Shown: positions 1-4,583, counted from the stretch's first letter. The stretch is DNA of 4,583 nt from a virus (IMGVR_UViG_2711768022_000007); one strand, 5' to 3'. The notes: a model not told the origin generated them from the letters alone. Numbers and translations are program-made.

Positions 1-79
1 GCTTTGAACTCTTTAGAGTAACGTTGGGTTTTTCTGCTCATTATTAGCTCCTTCTGATGCCATTCTATTTCAGGAAGGA

Positions 80-343
80 GTGTCCGTTAAACTCAGGCTA
101 CCTCAGGTTATTCGCTTCTGGGCATGGGCGGATCAACAAATGATAGACGGTAATGCAGATTGTAACGCTCGCGGCGTTACAAAAAGTGCAATAGATCGCA
201 TCACTTTTATGTCTGGTTTTGCTGATGCGTTAATTCAGGTTGGATGGCTGGTCGAAAATGACGGAGGGCTTTCTCTACCTAACTTTGAACGTCATAACGG
301 AAAAAGCTCTAAAAAAAACGGGCGGTTACAAACGAGCGAGTAA
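80..343 (+). CDS. Phage replication protein, YdaU-like (DUF1376-type), N-terminal fragment; frame is interrupted
   Basis: ORF from GTG at 80 (the only canonical start after the in-frame TAG at 14-16), preceded by AGGAAGGA at 72-79 with short spacing. It ends at TAA 341-343, but a protein-like reading continues in the -1 frame from the A8 run at 311-318. It sits directly upstream of the DnaC-like gene, the position of the initiator in Rac and lambda. The family name is from recalled synteny, not from a search. Confidence 0.55.
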   Translation: MSVKLRLPQVIRFWAWADQQMIDGNADCNARGVTKSAIDRITFMSGFADALIQVGWLVENDGGLSLPNFERHNGKSSKKNGRLQTSE

Positions 344-1221: not shown

Positions 1222-1498
1222 NNNNNNNNNNNNNNNNNNNNNNNNNNNNNNNNNNNNNNNNNNNNNNNNNNNNNNNNNNNNNNNNNNNNNNNNNNNNNNN
1301 NNNNNNNNNNNNNNNNNNNNNNNNNNNNNNNNNNNNNNNNNNNNNNNNNNNNNNNNNNNNNNNNNNNNNNNNNNNNNNNNNNNNNNNNNNNNNNNNNNNN
1401 NNNNNNNNNNNNNNNNNNNNNNNNNNNNNNNNNNNNNNNNNNNNNNNNNNNNNNNNNNNNNNNNNNNNNNNNNNNNNNNNNNNNNNNNNNNNNNNNNN
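1222..1498. other. Assembly/scaffold gap (277 N)
   Basis: Uninterrupted run of n. The true length and content are unknown, so any reading frame across it is meaningless. Confidence 0.99.
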
Positions 1499-1514: not shown

Positions 1515-1937
1515 ATGGCGAAACCTTTTACTCCCGAACAGCGGGAAGAACTGAAGACGCGAATTGTGGAACTCGTGCATCAGGACGGTCGGGTCACGAT
1601 TCGGCAGTTGTCAGATGAAACAGGTATCAGTCGTGCGTCTGTCGGTCGCTTATGCATAGAACTGGTCGCAAGTGGTGATGTATATAATTCTGGCTACGGC
1701 TTATTCCCGTCTGAACAGGCTCGCAAGGACTGGCAAAGCGCCCGCAAAAAACTCTCGAGAGTAAAGGTGAGGAAACCGGTTGTTGTTGATCCGGACCTTA
1801 TCTGGTCATTACCTGACGGAGAAATACGCCGCTACGACAGGCGCCTGAATATAATCTGTCGCGAGTGCCGGAAGAGCGAAGCTATGCAGCGTGTACTGGC
1901 TTTCTATCAGGGTAATTTTCAGGAGGCGATACTGTGA
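1515..1937 (+). CDS. ren: Ren-like protein (lambda ren family, Rex-exclusion resistance), 141 aa
   Basis: ATG at 1515 with a perfect AGGAGG at 1505-1510. The C-terminus (NIICRECRKSEAMQRVLAFYQG) matches the lambda Ren C-terminus as I recall it (NLVFKECRQSAAMKRVLAVYG). The N-terminal part has a helix-turn-helix-like stretch (RVTIRQLSDETGISRASVGRL). It lies immediately downstream of the P/DnaC-like gene, as ren does in lambda. It is longer than lambda Ren (96 aa) because of a central insertion of roughly 45 aa. The frame is open back into the gap, so an upstream start cannot be excluded. Confidence 0.6.
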   Translation: MAKPFTPEQREELKTRIVELVHQDGRVTIRQLSDETGISRASVGRLCIELVASGDVYNSGYGLFPSEQARKDWQSARKKLSRVKVRKPVVVDPDLIWSLPDGEIRRYDRRLNIICRECRKSEAMQRVLAFYQGNFQEAIL

Positions 1938-1994
1938 ATGAAATTAGCTATCAGGCTTCAATTACCGCTGGCATTCGCATCAAAGGAGAGGAGC

Positions 1995-2351
1995 ATGGAA
2001 ATAAAACCAGAAGATGAGTTAAGCAATATCGTTTTATTTCCGGTAAAAGAGGATGACCCTCGTAATCAGGTTAATTTTCTTTATGAGCCATCGGAAAGAC
2101 CATATTGCCATCACGCCTCTGTACGGGTTGACGAAAAAGAGCGTCAGGTCCGCTGTAAAATCTGCGGTGCGGTTGTGGAGCCGTTTGACTGGATGCTCTC
2201 TGTGGCAAAAAGAGAAACCAGACTGGCAGATGATGTAAGGCTATTGCGCCAGGAGGAACAGGAAAGGCGGAGAAATATAGAAAAGCTGATACAGATTGAG
2301 CGTAACGCGAAAGCGCGGATACGCAGGGCGACAAAATCCAGAACTGAATAA
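1995..2351 (+). CDS. Hypothetical small protein with Zn-ribbon-like motif and C-terminal basic coiled-coil region
   Basis: ATG at 1995 with AAGGAG/GGAG at 1984-1993. An alternative start is the ATG at 1938, which directly abuts the ren stop (TGAATG) and has AGGAGG 11 nt upstream. The motif C-H-H, then 18 residues, then C-x-x-C (PYCHHASVRV...RCKICG) is followed by a charged heptad-like tail (RLLRQEEQERRRNIEKLIQIERNAKARIRRA). Codon periodicity looks good. I do not recognise the family. Confidence 0.6.
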   Translation: MEIKPEDELSNIVLFPVKEDDPRNQVNFLYEPSERPYCHHASVRVDEKERQVRCKICGAVVEPFDWMLSVAKRETRLADDVRLLRQEEQERRRNIEKLIQIERNAKARIRRATKSRTE

Positions 2352-2456
2352 TTAAATTTAGCACTGTTAAAAATTTAATCCTTAACCGGAGGGATTTCTG
2401 CACCCTCAAATCATCAGGAGACCACCCGAAAGGGCGGGGAGCAGTCACACATCTGT

Positions 2457-2485
2457 TTCCGATAGCCCCGTTCTAATGCTACACT
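2457..2485 (+). promoter_or_regulatory. Weak candidate sigma70 promoter upstream of the QueH-like gene
   Basis: TTCCGA (2457-2462), 17 nt spacer, TACACT (2480-2485). The -35 is poor. An alternative -35-like TTGATA sits at 2488-2493. Confidence 0.2.
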
Positions 2486-2498
2486 CTTTGATATTTTT

Positions 2499-3185
2499 AT
2501 GACCCCAATAAACATATTTATGACAGTTGCTGATTTCAAACGGCCCAAATTGGAGCTCCCAAACGGGGCAAACAAACTACTACTGCACTCTTGCTGTGCT
2601 CCATGTTCCGGTGAGGTGATGGAGGCGCTTCAGGCCTCGGGAATCGACTACACCATCTTTTTCTACAACCCGAACATTCATCCTCAGAAAGAGTATTTAA
2701 TTCGTAAGGATGAGAATATTCGCTTTGCTGAACAACACGGCGTGCCGTTTATTGATGCTGATTACGACACAGACAACTGGTTTGAACGAGCCAAAGGAAT
2801 GGAATGGGAGCCCGAACGAGGGATCCGTTGCACCATGTGTTTTGACATGCGTTTTGAGCGGACAGCGCTGTACGCCGCTGAAAATGGTTTCAGTGTGATC
2901 AGCAGTTCACTGGGCATTTCACGCTGGAAAAATATGCAGCAGGTTAACGACTGTGGGCGGCGAGCCGTCGCGCATTATCCGGGCATGGTGTACTGGGATT
3001 ATAACTGGCGCAAGCAGGGCGGCTCGTCCCGTATGATTGAAATCAGCAAGCGCGAAAAATTCTATCAGCAGGAATATTGTGGCTGTGTGTATTCTCTGCG
3101 CGATACCAATCTACACCGCAAATCTCAGGGACGCCCTCTTATCAAAATTGGTCAACTCCACTACGGTAAAGAAGAGAAGGAGTGA
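2499..3185 (+). CDS. queH: QueH-like epoxyqueuosine reductase (DUF208 family, Fe-S, cobalamin-independent)
   Basis: 228-aa ORF carrying the motifs I associate with DUF208/QueH: [25 protein letters not shown] and YCGCVYS. The alternative start at 2520 is in frame; neither ATG has a clear Shine-Dalgarno. Assignment is by motif recognition only. Confidence 0.75.
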
Positions 3186-3206
3186 TTTTATGGGGCACCT
3201 TTCTGA

Positions 3207-3236
3207 TTGATTTCATATTGGCGAGGTAAGTAGAAT
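3207..3236 (+). promoter_or_regulatory. Candidate promoter of the hok/mok mRNA
   Basis: TTGATT (3207-3212), 18 nt spacer, TAGAAT (3231-3236). The predicted start near 3243 gives a 5' end GGGUGCUUGAGGCU..., which resembles the 5' end of plasmid R1 hok mRNA as I recall it. Confidence 0.45.
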
Positions 3237-3297
3237 GACTGCGGGTGCTTGAGGCTATCTGCTTCAGGCATGAACACCAAAAGGCAGATAGAGAAAA

Positions 3298-3364
3298 GCC
3301 CCAGTTAACATTACGCGTCCGGCAAGACGCTTAACATTAATCTGAGGCCAATTTCATGCTTTGC
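3298..3364 (-). ncRNA. sok: Sok-like antisense RNA (antitoxin of the hok/sok type I system); approximate extent
   Basis: Minus-strand promoter-like elements: -35 TTGCCT (complement of 3394-3399), 17 nt spacer, -10 TAACCT (complement of 3371-3376). The transcript would start near 3364 and be antisense to the mok translation-initiation region (mok ATG at 3356), as in known hok/sok loci. The 3' end is not defined; I found no clean terminator. Confidence 0.35.
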
Positions 3365-3568
3365 ACATGTAGGTTAGCCTCTTACATGCCGAAAGGCAAG
3401 GAGAAGCAGGCTATGAAGCAGCAAAAGGCGATGTTAATCGCCCTGATCGTCATCTGTTTAACCGTCATAGTGACGGCACTGGTAACGAGGAAAGACCTCT
3501 GTGAGGTACGAATCCGAACCGGCCAGACGGAGGTCGCTGTCTTCGTAGACTACGAATCCAGGAAGTAA
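3356..3568 (+). CDS. mok: Mok-like regulatory reading frame (in-frame N-terminal extension of Hok)
   Basis: ATG at 3356 with GAGG at 3344-3347. The N-terminal extension MLCTCRLASYMPKGKEKQA-MKQ... parallels chromosomal MokC (recalled as MLNTCRVPLTDRKVKEKRA-MKQ...). Same frame and same stop as hok. Confidence 0.5.
   Translation: MLCTCRLASYMPKGKEKQAMKQQKAMLIALIVICLTVIVTALVTRKDLCEVRIRTGQTEVAVFVDYESRK
3413..3568 (+). CDS. hok: Hok-family type I toxin (HokD/Gef-like, 51 aa, membrane-active)
   Basis: MKQQKAMLIALIVICLTVIVTALVTRKDLCEVRIRTGQTEVAVF... is near-identical to chromosomal HokD/HokC as I recall them until the last seven or so residues. AAGGAG at 3398-3403 lies 9 nt before the ATG. Single transmembrane helix plus the conserved C-terminal Cys region. 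Confidence 0.85.
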   Translation: MKQQKAMLIALIVICLTVIVTALVTRKDLCEVRIRTGQTEVAVFVDYESRK

Positions 3569-3576
3569 GAGTGACC

Positions 3577-3604
3577 GGGCGGGGAGCTGATCCCATCCCC
3601 GCCC
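3577..3604 (+). promoter_or_regulatory. Stable stem-loop in the hok mRNA 3' UTR
   Basis: Perfect 9-bp inverted repeat GGGCGGGGA (3577-3585) and TCCCCGCCC (3596-3604) with a 10-nt loop, just after the hok stop. It is not followed by a U-run, so it is structural or regulatory rather than a terminator. Confidence 0.5.
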
Positions 3605-3644
3605 ACCTCTGATGTGTCAGGCATCCTCAACGCACCCGCACTTA

Positions 3645-3688
3645 ACCCGCCCATCGCTGTGATCTCTCAGCGTTTCGGCGGGTTTTTT
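3645..3688 (+). terminator. Rho-independent terminator of the hok mRNA
   Basis: Outer stem ACCCGCC (3645-3651) pairs with GGCGGGT (3677-3683); inner stem CGCTG (3655-3659) pairs with CAGCG (3668-3672); a T6 run follows at 3683-3688. Confidence 0.6.
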
Positions 3689-3708
3689 GTTGTTTATTTC
3701 CGGTGAAT

Positions 3709-3736
3709 TTGATTCGCGCACCTTCGCAGATAGAAT
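3709..3736 (+). promoter_or_regulatory. Candidate sigma70 promoter for the downstream ORFs
   Basis: TTGATT (3709-3714), 16 nt spacer, TAGAAT (3731-3736), located just after the hok terminator and about 80 nt before the 3818 ORF. Confidence 0.35.
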
Positions 3737-3817
3737 CGACTCACTTAAGTAGCGCGCAGGGAGAAGAGGGATGGACCCCGAACAGGGGAGAGCTATTTAT
3801 CTGGAAGGATTCTGAAG

Positions 3818-4105
3818 ATGAAAATCGAAGAATTGCGTGAAATTTTTAGTGAAAATGGCCTCTATGCTGTGCGCGTTGAGAATGGAGCGATTGTCAGCCA
3901 TTGCCGCATTAGATGTTTGCAATCTCAACAAAGGAAGAGCGGTGCTGTGTTATTTTATTTTTGTAATGGACTTCTGACGGACGGTTTTATTTTGCGTGAG
4001 GACGAATTTGTCACATCATTACGGGTTTTGAAAGAGATTGGTTTTAAGGCTGGTTTTCTGCTTTTGCTGAAGAATAAACTCATCTACAATCTTGAGCAGG
4101 ATTGA
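3818..4105 (+). CDS. Hypothetical protein, 95 aa, AT-rich orphan ORF
   Basis: ATG at 3818 with AAGGA at 3805-3809 and an 8-nt spacer. Codon periodicity looks coding. It is visibly more AT-rich than its neighbours (about 38% GC in the first 60 nt by hand count). The stop TGA 4103-4105 overlaps a TTG at 4102. I do not recognise the family. Confidence 0.5.
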   Translation: MKIEELREIFSENGLYAVRVENGAIVSHCRIRCLQSQQRKSGAVLFYFCNGLLTDGFILREDEFVTSLRVLKEIGFKAGFLLLLKNKLIYNLEQD

Positions 4106-4143: not shown

Positions 4144-4497
4144 ATGGCACATATACAACTGGTCAAACAAACCTCTTCCGGATTACTTCTCCCGGCGACG
4201 CCGGAGAGTTGCGATTTTCTGCATCAAATCAAAATAGGTGAGTGGATACACGCAGACTTTAAGCGTGTGTGTAACTACGCATTCCACAAGCGTTTTTTCA
4301 AACTCCTGCAACTGGGTTTCGATTACTGGACTCCGGTCGGTGGGGCGATCACGCCTCGCGAACGAAAACTGGTGTCCGGTTTCGTTGATTACCTGTGTGA
4401 ATCAGTAGGCCGGGAACATACGCCAGCTCTGAGCGAAGCCGCAGAGCAATTGAGGTGTACTGGCAATAGCGGACACTACCATTTGTTCTTTTTTTAA
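4144..4497 (+). CDS. Conserved lambdoid nin-region hypothetical protein, possibly DUF1367-like and shorter than expected
   Basis: ATG at 4144 with GGAG at 4133-4136 and a 7-nt spacer. The track start is the TTG at 4102, which overlaps the upstream stop. The N-terminus MAHIQLVKQTSSGLLLPATPE...ADFKR...AFHKRFF resembles my memory of a prophage family common in E. coli nin regions (DUF1367); this is tentative. It ends at TAA 4495-4497 and no other frame continues it. Confidence 0.5.
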   Translation: MAHIQLVKQTSSGLLLPATPESCDFLHQIKIGEWIHADFKRVCNYAFHKRFFKLLQLGFDYWTPVGGAITPRERKLVSGFVDYLCESVGREHTPALSEAAEQLRCTGNSGHYHLFFF

Positions 4498-4508
4498 GCA
4501 GCCATCTG

Positions 4509-4583
4509 ATGATATTTTTCCCTGAAGGCTGCCGGGGAGATATTCCCCAGACGAGAGTGACGACGCTGACGATTGTAGAAAAT
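4509..4583 (+). CDS. 5' end of an ORF running off the window (MIFFPEGCRGDIPQTRVTTLTIVEN...), unknown product
   Basis: ATG at 4509, 11 nt after the upstream stop and in the same orientation. There is no clear Shine-Dalgarno and only 25 codons are visible. Confidence 0.25.
   Translation, partial: MIFFPEGCRGDIPQTRVTTLTIVEN

What the first reader, a model, noticed from the sequence alone, without database searches (positions are those of the whole stretch)
2499..3185. Prophage-borne QueH-like (cobalamin-independent) epoxyqueuosine reductase as cargo between ren and the nin-like genes
The ORF carries the DUF208/QueH hallmark motifs (HSCCAPC, YNPNIHP, RCTMC, YCGC). Established knowledge: enterobacteria finish queuosine synthesis in tRNA (Asp, Asn, His, Tyr) with QueG, which needs cobalamin, and E. 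coli cannot make cobalamin de novo; QueH is the Fe-S alternative. Inference: a phage-supplied QueH would let the lysogen or the infecting phage complete queuosine without B12. That could tune decoding of NAU/NAC codons, or change how tRNAs are seen by anticodon nucleases that recognise Q34 (colicin E5-type). A DNA 7-deazaguanine role is less likely because no DpdA, QueC, QueD or QueE is nearby.
Basis: partly seen in the sequence, partly recalled or inferred. Interest (0 to 1): 0.75.

Follow-up and report, generated by a model that had tools for sequence, protein, structure and literature searches.

The report
Prophage-carried QueH tRNA queuosine reductase
A lambda-like prophage of E. coli carries an intact, strongly conserved copy of QueH, the vitamin-B12-independent enzyme for the last step of queuosine tRNA modification; this gives about one E. 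coli strain in five a second route alongside its own B12-dependent QueG, and databases already name the gene although its phage and plasmid location seems undiscussed.

Summary
The ORF 2499..3185 is a full-length QueH: Pfam PF02677 at 220.6 bits, T. maritima QueH as the best sequence and fold match, and all six invariant Cys ligand columns present. The true start is the ATG at 2520 (221 aa).

The gene sits in the early-right accessory region of lambdoid, Rac-like and Qin-like prophages. A Ren-like DUF977 gene lies upstream, and hok/sok or an R-M pair lies downstream.

- 995 of 5426 complete E. coli genomes carry it, and all 5426 also have queG.
- 188 IMG/VR viral contigs carry it, as do one isolated phage (HannyBb) and about 300 plasmids, including IncF.
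- All 83 copies examined are intact, with dN/dS of 0.02-0.08.
- The ~740-bp cassette (2449..3191) carries a conserved TGCTACACT extended -10-like element. The same element lies upstream of chromosomal queH in Scandinavium, Kluyvera, Enterobacter and Erwinia (85-92% protein identity), which resemble the donors.

Best reading: a captured housekeeping queH, probably expressed from its own promoter as a lysogenic-conversion gene, makes oQ-to-Q maturation independent of B12. Enzyme activity, expression and fitness benefit are untested. PGAP already names it QueH, so this is a new context for a known enzyme and is moderately interesting.

The parts
2520..3185 (+). queH coding sequence (221 aa), the Fe-S, cobalamin-independent epoxyqueuosine reductase family
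   Evidence: Pfam PF02677 at 220.6 bits. PDB T. maritima QueH E=5e-22. Foldseek top 5 hits are all QueH structures. Six invariant Cys columns present. The PGAP start and the conserved ATG agree. dN/dS 0.02-0.08.
2499..2519 (+).
   Evidence: 0-1 synonymous against 4-5 nonsynonymous changes, and the ATG is ATT in the plasmid copies. Protein variants among prophage alleles cluster here.
2477..2485 (+). TGCTACACT, an extended -10-like promoter element (TGn + TACACT) 43 nt upstream of the ATG at 2520; predicted transcription start near 2492
   Evidence: Identical in all mobile copies, including plasmid copies only 83% identical overall. TGCTACACT or TGCTACAAT lies at about -40 to -44 upstream of chromosomal queH in Erwinia, Scandinavium, Kluyvera, Enterobacter and Symbiopectobacterium. 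Sequence evidence only; the simple promoter scan did not call it because the -35 is poor.
2449..3191 (+). The ~740-bp queH cassette, the unit of homology shared between different prophages and IncF plasmids
   Evidence: Left homology break at 2449 in 63 of 83 loci; right breaks at 3191, 3348, 3650 or 4450. Plasmid copies match 2449/2456 to 3189/3192. Chromosomal orthologues match only about 2472/2508 to 3172/3189.
3243..3418 (+). hok/sok regulatory RNA region, a frequent but separable downstream partner of the cassette
   Evidence: Rfam RF01794 sok, 117 bits against a gathering score of 59. hok follows queH in about 67 of 84 phage loci.
3413..3568 (+). hokD-like type I toxin gene
   Evidence: Pfam HOK_GEF E=9.8e-23. 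PGAP names it hokD at the corresponding position in L001.
1515..1937 (+). DUF977 / Ren-like exclusion protein gene, the usual upstream neighbour
   Evidence: phrog_142 'Ren-like exclusion protein' E=3e-44. PGAP DUF977 in L001. Present upstream in 79 of 84 loci.
1995..2351 (+). Small Zn-ribbon hypothetical gene lying between the Ren-like gene and queH in this prophage type only
   Evidence: phrog_1621, unknown function. Weak Zn_Ribbon_TF hit. PGAP hypothetical gene in L001. Absent from most other queH prophages.
4144..4450 (+). 5' part of a DUF1367/NinB-like gene, truncated by IS600
   Evidence: Pfam DUF1367 E=1.5e-46 covering profile positions 1-102 of 198. phrog_319 NinB/Orf. Homology to L001 ends at 4450. 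Bases 4451-4583 are an IS600 end.

Best explanation
The gene encodes a genuine QueH, an Fe-S enzyme with an adenine-nucleotide-alpha-hydrolase-like fold. QueH reduces epoxyqueuosine (oQ) to queuosine (Q) at position 34 of tRNA-Asp, -Asn, -His and -Tyr without cobalamin. A ~740-bp piece of an Enterobacteriaceae chromosome, comprising queH and its native promoter, was captured into the variable accessory slot of lambdoid prophages. This slot lies just downstream of the Ren-like gene and elsewhere holds relBE or an R-M system. The same cassette also entered IncF plasmids. It is probably transcribed from its own extended -10 promoter in the lysogen, and by read-through of the early-right operon after induction. 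It would give hosts that rely on the B12-dependent QueG and cannot make B12 aerobically or at all (E. coli, Salmonella, Klebsiella) a B12-independent way to finish Q. Shown here: family membership, ligand conservation, fold, orthology to chromosomal queH, mobile-element location, co-occurrence with queG, intactness and strong purifying selection. Inferred: promoter activity, expression in lysogens, enzyme activity in E. coli, and that B12 independence is the selected benefit.
For: - Family: Pfam QueH 220.6 bits, full profile. The only significant PDB sequence hits are T. maritima QueH. AF2 model pTM 0.76, with the top 5 Foldseek PDB hits all QueH at TM 0.75-0.79.
- Active site: C25, C26, C104, C107, C187 and C189 are invariant, and C29 is at least 90% conserved, in 32 sequences at 33-72% identity.
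- Orthology: 80-92% identity to queH genes in ordinary chromosomal neighbourhoods of Erwinia, Providencia, Photorhabdus, Enterobacter and Scandinavium.
- Mobile context: prophage in L001, L003 and L095, and isolated phage HannyBb; 188 IMG/VR contigs; 302 plasmid records, with the three contexts inspected all IncF conjugative plasmids.
- Frequency: 995 of 5426 E. coli genomes carry it, while queG is in 5426 of 5426.
- Selection: 83 of 83 copies intact; dN/dS 0.02-0.08; the Cys-motif N-terminus (codons 8-40) shows 4 synonymous/0 nonsynonymous and 13/3 changes against the two plasmid copies.
- Promoter: a conserved promoter-like element travels with the gene.
- Background: the cobamide dependence of oQ reduction in E. 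coli and Salmonella is established (Frey et al. 1988, as cited in PMC5175355). QueH is described as the non-orthologous replacement for QueG (PMC5372724).
Against: - No experiment shows activity or expression of this copy.
- No intrinsic terminator and no canonical Shine-Dalgarno sequence were found (and direct reading), so the translation level is unknown.
- The -35 region is poor, and the promoter is inferred from conservation only.
- The physiological difference between oQ-tRNA and Q-tRNA in E. coli is unknown.
- The gut usually contains corrinoids, so the size of any benefit is uncertain.
- No NCBIfam HMM matched, although PGAP still names the protein QueH.
- T. maritima QueH has Asp where this protein has Cys29. 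That Cys is the family norm, but its role has not been checked structurally here.
Confidence: 0.72

Rival explanations
1. QueH serves the phage during lytic growth. It would be expressed mainly by read-through from pR after induction and would raise Q in tRNA quickly, to improve decoding of NAU/NAC codons in late phage genes or to manipulate the host response to infection. On this view it is not a lysogen fitness gene.
For: The gene lies in the same orientation as the early-right operon, between the replication and nin/Q genes, with no terminator detected on either side. In Shewanella, phage infection induces queG and shifts the oQ/Q ratio, so the oQ-to-Q step is a responsive node during infection (preprint 10.64898/2026.03.05.709803).
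Against: The same cassette with the same upstream element is kept on IncF plasmids and in defective prophages such as Qin of E. coli B. In this window it lies in an IS600-bracketed prophage fragment. No lytic cycle exists in those places, yet the gene stays intact under strong purifying selection. Only one of 50,697 deposited phage genomes carries it.
Confidence: 0.12
2. QueH is kept for a role in conflict between mobile elements or bacteria. One version: it removes the cell's need for B12 in tRNA maturation, so that BtuB (the receptor for E colicins and some phages) can be lost or repressed at lower cost. Another version: it changes the susceptibility of Q34 tRNAs to anticodon nucleases.
For: The slot it occupies is a defence and addiction hotspot: hok/sok here, relBE in K-12 Qin, and a C5-methyltransferase with an NgoMIV-like endonuclease in O157:H7. 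On one Klebsiella IncF plasmid it lies near TonB/TolA fragments and entry-exclusion genes.
Against: There is no PADLOC match. The neighbourhood evidence is by association only, and neighbours differ between elements. From my own knowledge (not tested here), colicin E5 does not need Q for cleavage. Nothing here links queH presence to btuB status.
Confidence: 0.1
3. The gene is a passenger with no selected function. It would hitch-hike with the hok/sok addiction module or persist simply because the prophages are recent.
For: It is linked to hok/sok in about 67 of 84 loci, and it is redundant with queG in every genome.
Against: Synonymous divergence of up to about 0.17 is accompanied by almost no amino-acid change (dN/dS 0.02-0.08), and 83 of 83 copies are intact. 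The cassette also occurs without hok, next to R-M genes and on plasmids.
Confidence: 0.04
4. The protein acts on a substrate other than tRNA, for example a 7-deazaguanine base in phage DNA.
For: Phages are known to use 7-deazaguanine chemistry for DNA modification (PMC6884629).
Against: No DpdA, TGT or QueC/D/E gene is annotated in the parts read of L001 or of phage HannyBb, bases 1-40252 of 45272. The 2019 survey found no QueA, QueG or QueH in deazaguanine-modifying viruses. The protein is 85-92% identical to chromosomal housekeeping queH genes.
Confidence: 0.02

Closest known systems
QueH (DUF208, PF02677), e.g. Thermotoga maritima QueH, PDB 7LC5/7LC7/9DEU
   Same: Full-length domain match, the same predicted fold, and the same six invariant Cys columns plus N52, E58, R62, E99, R103, K137 and Q184.
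   Different: Only about 30-33% identical to the crystallised enzyme. It has Cys (C29) where T. maritima has Asp13, a residue that depositors mutated (9DCO is D13N); Cys is the majority state in the family. It has short N- and C-terminal extensions. It is encoded on a prophage or plasmid rather than as the sole chromosomal oQ reductase.
Chromosomal queH of Enterobacterales (Scandinavium, Kluyvera, Enterobacter 89-92%; Erwinia, Providencia, Photorhabdus 80-86%)
   Same: Near-identical protein, the same length, and the same TGCTACA(C/A)T element about 43 nt upstream of the start in several species.
   Different: Those copies lie among housekeeping genes (purL, tmcA, icd region). This one lies in a phage accessory slot flanked by phage genes and hok/sok.
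QueG (E. coli yjeS), the cobalamin/[4Fe-4S] epoxyqueuosine reductase
   Same: It catalyses the same reaction on the same tRNAs according to the literature (PMC5372724), and it is present in every E. coli genome that carries this queH.
   Different: The protein family is unrelated and QueG requires cobalamin. QueG and QueH co-occur in some Firmicutes (S. aureus, S. pyogenes; PMC13443448 and PMC12632869), but there both are chromosomal.
Lambdoid 'morons' / lysogenic-conversion genes in the ren-nin region (e.g. relBE-hokD of Qin, prophage R-M systems)
   Same: A discrete cassette with sharp mosaic boundaries, present in some related prophages and absent from others, at a slot that holds other accessory genes, with a promoter-like element of its own.
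   Different: The cargo is a tRNA-modification enzyme rather than a toxin, defence or virulence gene. No terminator was detected, and expression in the lysogen is unproven.

Membership tests
QueH (PF02677 / IPR003828) epoxyqueuosine reductase | Significant full-length match to the family HMM above the curated threshold | tested here: met
   220.6 bits against a cut-off of 23.5, E=1.9e-65, profile positions 1-174 of 175.
QueH (PF02677 / IPR003828) epoxyqueuosine reductase | Conserved cysteines (CC..., CxxC, CGC) that bind the [4Fe-4S] cluster and the adjacent iron; the ligand roles are recalled from Li et al. 2021, which was not readable here | tested here: met
   C25, C26, C104, C107, C187 and C189 are invariant in 32 diverse members including T. 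maritima QueH. C29 is at least 90% conserved (T. maritima has Asp13). All are invariant in 25 enterobacterial-type sequences.
QueH (PF02677 / IPR003828) epoxyqueuosine reductase | QueH three-dimensional fold | tested here: met
   AF2 model pLDDT 74.9, pTM 0.76. Foldseek top five PDB hits are 7lc7, 7lc5, 9d86, 9deu and 9dco (all QueH), E 8e-10 to 3e-8, TM 0.75-0.79 on the target; the next hits (TtuA, LarE) have E above 6e-5.
QueH (PF02677 / IPR003828) epoxyqueuosine reductase | Orthology to queH genes in genomes where it is a chromosomal Q-pathway gene | tested here: met
   80-92% identity to chromosomal queH of many Enterobacterales in non-mobile contexts. Whether those genomes lack queG was not tested.
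QueH (PF02677 / IPR003828) epoxyqueuosine reductase | Catalyses oQ-tRNA to Q-tRNA (complements a queG deletion) | not testable with these tools
   Needs LC-MS of tRNA nucleosides from queG-deleted strains with and without the cassette.
QueH (PF02677 / IPR003828) epoxyqueuosine reductase | Match to a curated NCBIfam model | tested here: not met
   No NCBIfam HMM hit at E<=0.01. PGAP nevertheless names the protein 'epoxyqueuosine reductase QueH', presumably by another rule, so this is not informative against membership.
Prophage moron / lysogenic-conversion cassette | Discrete insertion, present or absent among otherwise related phages, at a module boundary | tested here: met
   Sharp homology breaks at 2449 and at 3191/3348/3650. 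Most Stx and lambdoid phages match only the hok/sok flank. The same slot holds relBE in K-12 Qin and is followed by an R-M pair in O157.
Prophage moron / lysogenic-conversion cassette | Own promoter | tested here: inconclusive
   Conserved TGCTACACT extended -10-like element at -43. The -35 is weak, the consensus scan did not call it, and there are no transcript data.
Prophage moron / lysogenic-conversion cassette | Own terminator | tested here: not met
   No intrinsic-terminator-like site in 1900-3900.
Prophage moron / lysogenic-conversion cassette | Expressed in the lysogen and changes the host phenotype | not testable with these tools
   Needs RNA-seq or 5'-RACE and tRNA LC-MS on lysogens.
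Phage 7-deazaguanine DNA-modification systems (DpdA with preQ0 genes) | A DpdA/TGT-like transglycosylase and QueC/D/E genes in the same element | tested here: not met
   None is annotated in the 24.7 kb of the prophage or in bases 1-40252 of the 45,272-base phage HannyBb. This check used annotation only, not HMMs on every ORF.
Known anti-phage defence systems (PADLOC) | Match to any PADLOC model | tested here: not met
   No hit for QueH or for the two flanking hypothetical proteins.

The most novel reading that the evidence does not exclude
Mobile elements of B12-dependent Enterobacteriaceae (lambdoid prophages and IncF plasmids) may spread queH as a 'cofactor-uncoupling' gene. By making the oQ-to-Q step independent of cobalamin and constitutive, it would fix the Q status of four tRNAs. 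That would let the host lose or repress the BtuB receptor used by E colicins and phages, or blunt an infection-responsive oQ/Q switch, without a translational cost. On this reading a tRNA-modification enzyme acts as a conflict-related lysogenic-conversion factor.
Probability: 0.1. Interest if true: 0.75.

Novelty: new member of a known kind. Interest (0 to 1): 0.45.

Why it matters
If the enzyme is active, about 18% of sequenced E. coli should finish queuosine without vitamin B12, while K-12 cannot. The carriers seen include an O157:H7 strain and E. coli B. This would be a strain difference in the tRNA epitranscriptome caused by a prophage, and it bears on tRNA and protein work done in B strains. 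It would also be a rare case of a phage- and plasmid-borne tRNA-modification gene: a 2019 survey found no QueA, QueG or QueH in viruses (PMC6884629). The question is directly testable with a simple knockout and LC-MS experiment. PHROGs still lists the family (phrog_3217) as 'unknown function', and HannyBb annotates the gene as hypothetical, so phage annotation could be improved at once.

Tried and rejected
- Literature: searches for QueH or DUF208 with phage or prophage, and for queuosine with prophage, found no paper describing a prophage or plasmid queH in E. coli. The two key QueH papers (Zallot 2017, PMC5495094; Li 2021, PMC8884141) and Frey 1988 are not held. Ligand roles therefore rest on my memory plus the conservation analysis.
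- NCBIfam gave no hit, and PADLOC gave none.
- The consensus promoter and terminator scan found nothing useful upstream or downstream of queH. The promoter-like element was found only by comparing copies.
- Rfam found no riboswitch or other RNA upstream of queH, only sok downstream. There are no tRNA genes in the window.
- The idea that the ~105-kb Klebsiella plasmids were phage-plasmids was checked and rejected. They are IncF conjugative plasmids.
- The 'Acinetobacter phage MD-2021a' hits looked like a second phage lineage with QueH, but the record is a 328-kb bacterial contig with housekeeping and T6SS genes. The roughly 20 'Bacteriophage sp.' faecal scaffolds at 31-51% identity are unverified and unannotated, so they were not counted.
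- A site-specific cassette mechanism (integron-like or repeat-bounded) was considered. The junctions show three different upstream joins and no obvious terminal repeats, so ordinary phage mosaicism is the simpler reading.
- One of my offsets for L003 was off by one because of an indel. That row was discarded; L003 was handled correctly.

Full report
**Observation**

The ORF listing returns an ORF at 2499..3185 on the + strand (228 codons). Against Pfam it matches PF02677 (QueH) at 220.6 bits (cut-off 23.5, E=1.9e-65) over positions 1-174 of the 175-position profile. No other Pfam family matches. NCBIfam has no matching model, and PADLOC has none.

**Identity of the protein**

- Sequence: the only significant PDB sequence matches are the Thermotoga maritima QueH entries 7LC5/7LC7/9DEU, plus the mutants 9DCO (D13N) and 9D86 (C9S), at E about 5e-22 over residues 20-196 of the 221-aa protein.
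- Fold: an AlphaFold2 model built on 25 close homologues has pTM 0.76 and mean pLDDT 74.9. Its five best Foldseek hits in the PDB are all QueH structures, with TM 0.75-0.79 normalised to the target. The next hits are other alpha-hydrolase-fold Fe-S or sulfur-transfer enzymes (TtuA, LarE) at E-values about four orders of magnitude higher.
- Family size: a search of 1.84 billion cluster representatives gave 2516 family members at E<=1e-10.
- Active site: I aligned the query with 30 of those representatives (36-72% identical to it) and T. maritima QueH (33% identical). The six cysteines C25, C26, C104, C107, C187 and C189 (221-aa numbering) are invariant, as are N52, E58, R62, E99, R103, K137 and Q184. 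C29 is at least 90% conserved, and T. maritima is the exception with Asp13.

The protein therefore has the majority active-site make-up of the family. The assignment of these residues to the [4Fe-4S] cluster and the adjacent iron comes from my memory of Li et al. 2021, which the library does not hold.

**Start codon**

- Among 83 copies the few amino-acid differences cluster in the first ten codons.
- In the two plasmid alleles the ATG at 2499 reads ATT. 'Codons' 1-7 there show 0-1 synonymous against 4-5 nonsynonymous differences.
- Codons 8-40, which carry the CCAPC motif, show 4 synonymous/0 nonsynonymous and 13/3 differences against the two plasmid copies.
- The ATG at 2520 is conserved in phage, plasmid and chromosomal copies and is PGAP's start.

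The gene is therefore 2520..3185, 221 aa. PHROGs has a family for this protein (phrog_3217, 459.7 bits) labelled 'unknown function'. Its profile begins at residue 34, so many phage annotations evidently start the gene at an internal Met and cut off the CCAPC motif.

**Genomic context**

The window is 100% identical over queH to a prophage next to ybhA in E. coli FDAARGOS_944. The gene order there is:

1. integrase, excisionase, RecE/Gam and repressor/Cro-like genes
2. YdaT, an O-like gene, a DnaC-like gene (ydaV) and DUF977
3. a 118-aa hypothetical gene, QueH, hokD and another hypothetical gene
4. DUF1367, DUF1364 and DUF1133
5. four tRNA genes (Ile, Arg, Thr, Gly), then lysis and head genes

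PHROGs calls the DUF977 protein 'Ren-like exclusion protein' and the DUF1367 protein 'NinB/Orf'. Rfam finds the hok/sok RNA at 3243..3418.

The same gene is in the Qin-like prophage of E. coli B, in a prophage of an O157:H7 strain and in the isolated lambda-like phage HannyBb, where it is annotated 'hypothetical protein'.

**Frequency**

| Collection | Result |
|---|---|
| Complete E. coli genomes | queH in 995 of 5426, named 'epoxyqueuosine reductase QueH' by PGAP |
| Complete E. coli genomes | queG in 5426 of 5426 |
| IMG/VR viral contigs | 188 contigs carry queH |
| Deposited phage genomes (50,697) | only HannyBb is a credible carrier |
| Plasmids (tblastn) | 302 records: 99 Klebsiella, 67 Escherichia and others |

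- In E. coli this queH is therefore always a second oQ reductase alongside queG.
- An 'Acinetobacter phage' record with a hit is a mislabelled bacterial contig.
- The three plasmid contexts I inspected are IncF conjugative plasmids of Klebsiella and Salmonella.

**Selection**

All 83 copies recovered from phage loci have an open 228-codon frame. There are 21 nucleotide alleles but only 8 protein variants. Nei-Gojobori estimates against the window allele give dS up to 0.18 with dN of 0.002-0.012, so dN/dS is 0.02-0.08. The plasmid alleles show the same pattern (32 synonymous/4 nonsynonymous and 48/7 in the core). The gene is kept as a working protein on mobile elements.

**The cassette and its origin**

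Homology between the window and other queH prophages breaks sharply at 2449 on the left in 63 of 83 loci. On the right it breaks at 3191, 3348, 3650 or 4450. Plasmid copies match 2449/2456 to 3189/3192. The closest chromosomal genes match from 2472 (Scandinavium) or 2508 (Erwinia) to about 3172-3189.

Within the roughly 70 nt carried upstream of the start lies TGCTACACT (2477-2485), which is an extended -10 motif (TGn plus TACACT).

- It is identical at -43 in every mobile copy, including plasmid alleles only 83% identical overall.
- TGCTACACT or TGCTACAAT lies at -40 to -44 upstream of the chromosomal queH of Erwinia, Scandinavium, Kluyvera, Enterobacter quasihormaechei and Symbiopectobacterium.

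The nearest chromosomal proteins are 92% (Scandinavium), 91% (Kluyvera) and 89-90% (Enterobacter) identical. They lie among ordinary chromosomal genes, for example next to mnmA-nudJ-rluE-icd. Erwinia, Providencia and Photorhabdus copies (80-86%) lie next to purL, tmcA and other housekeeping genes.

The simplest history is capture of an Enterobacteriaceae queH together with its promoter, followed by spread among phages and plasmids through ordinary mosaic recombination. I saw no terminal repeats or other sign of a site-specific mechanism.

**The slot**

In 84 phage loci a DUF977 Ren-like gene lies within 1.5 kb upstream in 79. Downstream is hok in about 67 and a C5 methyltransferase with an NgoMIV-like endonuclease in 14. 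In K-12 Qin the position just upstream of hokD holds relBE instead. This is a typical accessory or 'moron' hotspot.

**Mechanism**

Established knowledge:
- oQ-to-Q reduction in E. coli and Salmonella needs a cobamide (Frey et al. 1988, cited in PMC5175355).
- QueG is the cobalamin enzyme responsible.
- QueH is its non-orthologous, iron-dependent replacement (PMC5372724; PMC9508795).
- Some Firmicutes keep both enzymes and express them differently (PMC13443448; PMC12632869).

The most likely function of the phage copy is therefore the family function: reduction of oQ34 to Q34 in tRNA-Asp, -Asn, -His and -Tyr without B12. It is probably expressed from its own promoter in the lysogen and by read-through after induction. 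This is inference. No terminator or Shine-Dalgarno sequence was found, and no expression or activity data exist for this copy.

**Rivals**

- A lytic-cycle role is made less likely by retention on plasmids and in defective prophages.
- A passenger role is contradicted by the purifying selection and by occurrence of the cassette without hok.
- A DNA-modification role lacks the required DpdA and preQ0 genes and does not fit the 2019 virus survey.
- A conflict-related role rests only on the neighbourhood and on a Shewanella preprint. That preprint shows that oQ-to-Q conversion responds to phage infection. This role could involve BtuB-loss compensation, an oQ/Q switch during infection, or anticodon nucleases.

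**Novelty**

The enzyme family is known, and RefSeq already labels this gene QueH. Two things appear not to have been described in the searchable literature:
- The gene is phage and plasmid cargo in species that already have QueG.
- It brings its own promoter and is under strong constraint there.

Hutinet et al. 2019 state that no QueA, QueG or QueH homologue was found in the viruses they analysed. I could not read Zallot et al. 2017 to check whether E. coli prophage copies were mentioned there. I rate it a new member (new context) of a known kind, with moderate interest. Its value lies in a cheap, decisive experiment and in the implied K-12 against B/O157 difference in tRNA modification.

Noticed in passing
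window 1-104 and 4451-4583; L012 2308-3573 and 7952-9217: Both ends of the window are IS600 (IS3 family) termini. In the 100%-matching contig L012, directly oriented IS600 copies bracket the 4.4-kb prophage fragment that carries queH and hok/sok, and a third partial copy lies further left. The insertions truncate the O-like gene and the NinB-like DUF1367 gene at 4450, so this prophage copy is degraded and the segment looks like a composite transposon.
   Followed up: partly
window 3192-3650; L091 (K-12 Qin) 5120-5873; L095 9872-11882: The slot next to queH is an accessory hotspot. It holds hok/sok here, relBE-hokD in K-12 Qin (no queH), and a C5 DNA methyltransferase with an NgoMIV-family endonuclease directly after queH in O157:H7 and 13 other loci.
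   Followed up: partly
window 2520-3185 against PHROGs phrog_3217: The PHROG family for this protein is labelled 'unknown function', and its profile starts at residue 34 of 221. Many phage annotations therefore appear to begin the gene at an internal Met (preceded by GGTGAGGTG) and lose the CCAPC ligand motif. HannyBb annotates the gene as hypothetical.
   Followed up: partly
L092, L093, L094 (IncF plasmids of Klebsiella and Salmonella): The same queH cassette sits on conjugative IncF plasmids near repA(FII). In different plasmids it lies next to fecC/fecE, TonB and TolA fragments and entry-exclusion genes. 302 plasmid records have a QueH by tblastn, including Bacillus, Ligilactobacillus and Acinetobacter plasmids at lower identity.
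   Followed up: partly
L138-L176 (genome-contig hits): QueH proteins 76-80% identical to this one occur in Sphingomonas, Stenotrophomonas, Pseudomonas, Lysobacter, Rhizobium, Paracoccus and Acetobacter. That is unusually high identity across proteobacterial classes and suggests either extreme constraint or wide horizontal spread of this QueH clade.
   Followed up: no
L096 (CAKLQH020000001.1, 'Acinetobacter phage MD-2021a'): This 328-kb 'phage' record carries dadA, soxR, tadA, T6SS genes and a chromosomal queH. It is a bacterial contig mislabelled as a phage in the phage collection.
   Followed up: yes
window 1222-1498: A run of 277 N masks the 3' part of the DnaC-like ydaV gene. The matching contig L012 has ordinary sequence there, so this is masking and not a gap in the genome.
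   Followed up: yes
window 2422-2441: A GC-rich hairpin (CCACCC-GAAA-GGGCGG, perfect as CCGCCC-GAAA-GGGCGG in L017 and L026) lies just upstream of the cassette's left boundary without a T-run. In L013, L015 and L022 the homology break falls inside it (2425). Its role is unknown; it could be the end of the upstream module's transcript or a recombination joint.
   Followed up: no
L002 (phage HannyBb) against L003 (E. coli B Qin-like prophage): The isolated phage HannyBb and the Qin-like prophage of E. coli B share the same queH region, with the same homology extents and percent identities to the window and the same junctions, including a methyltransferase fragment upstream. They appear to be close relatives.
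   Followed up: no
L001 15276-15586: The intact version of this prophage carries four tRNA genes (Ile, Arg, Thr, Gly) downstream of the Q-like region. None is a queuosine-modified tRNA species.
   Followed up: no
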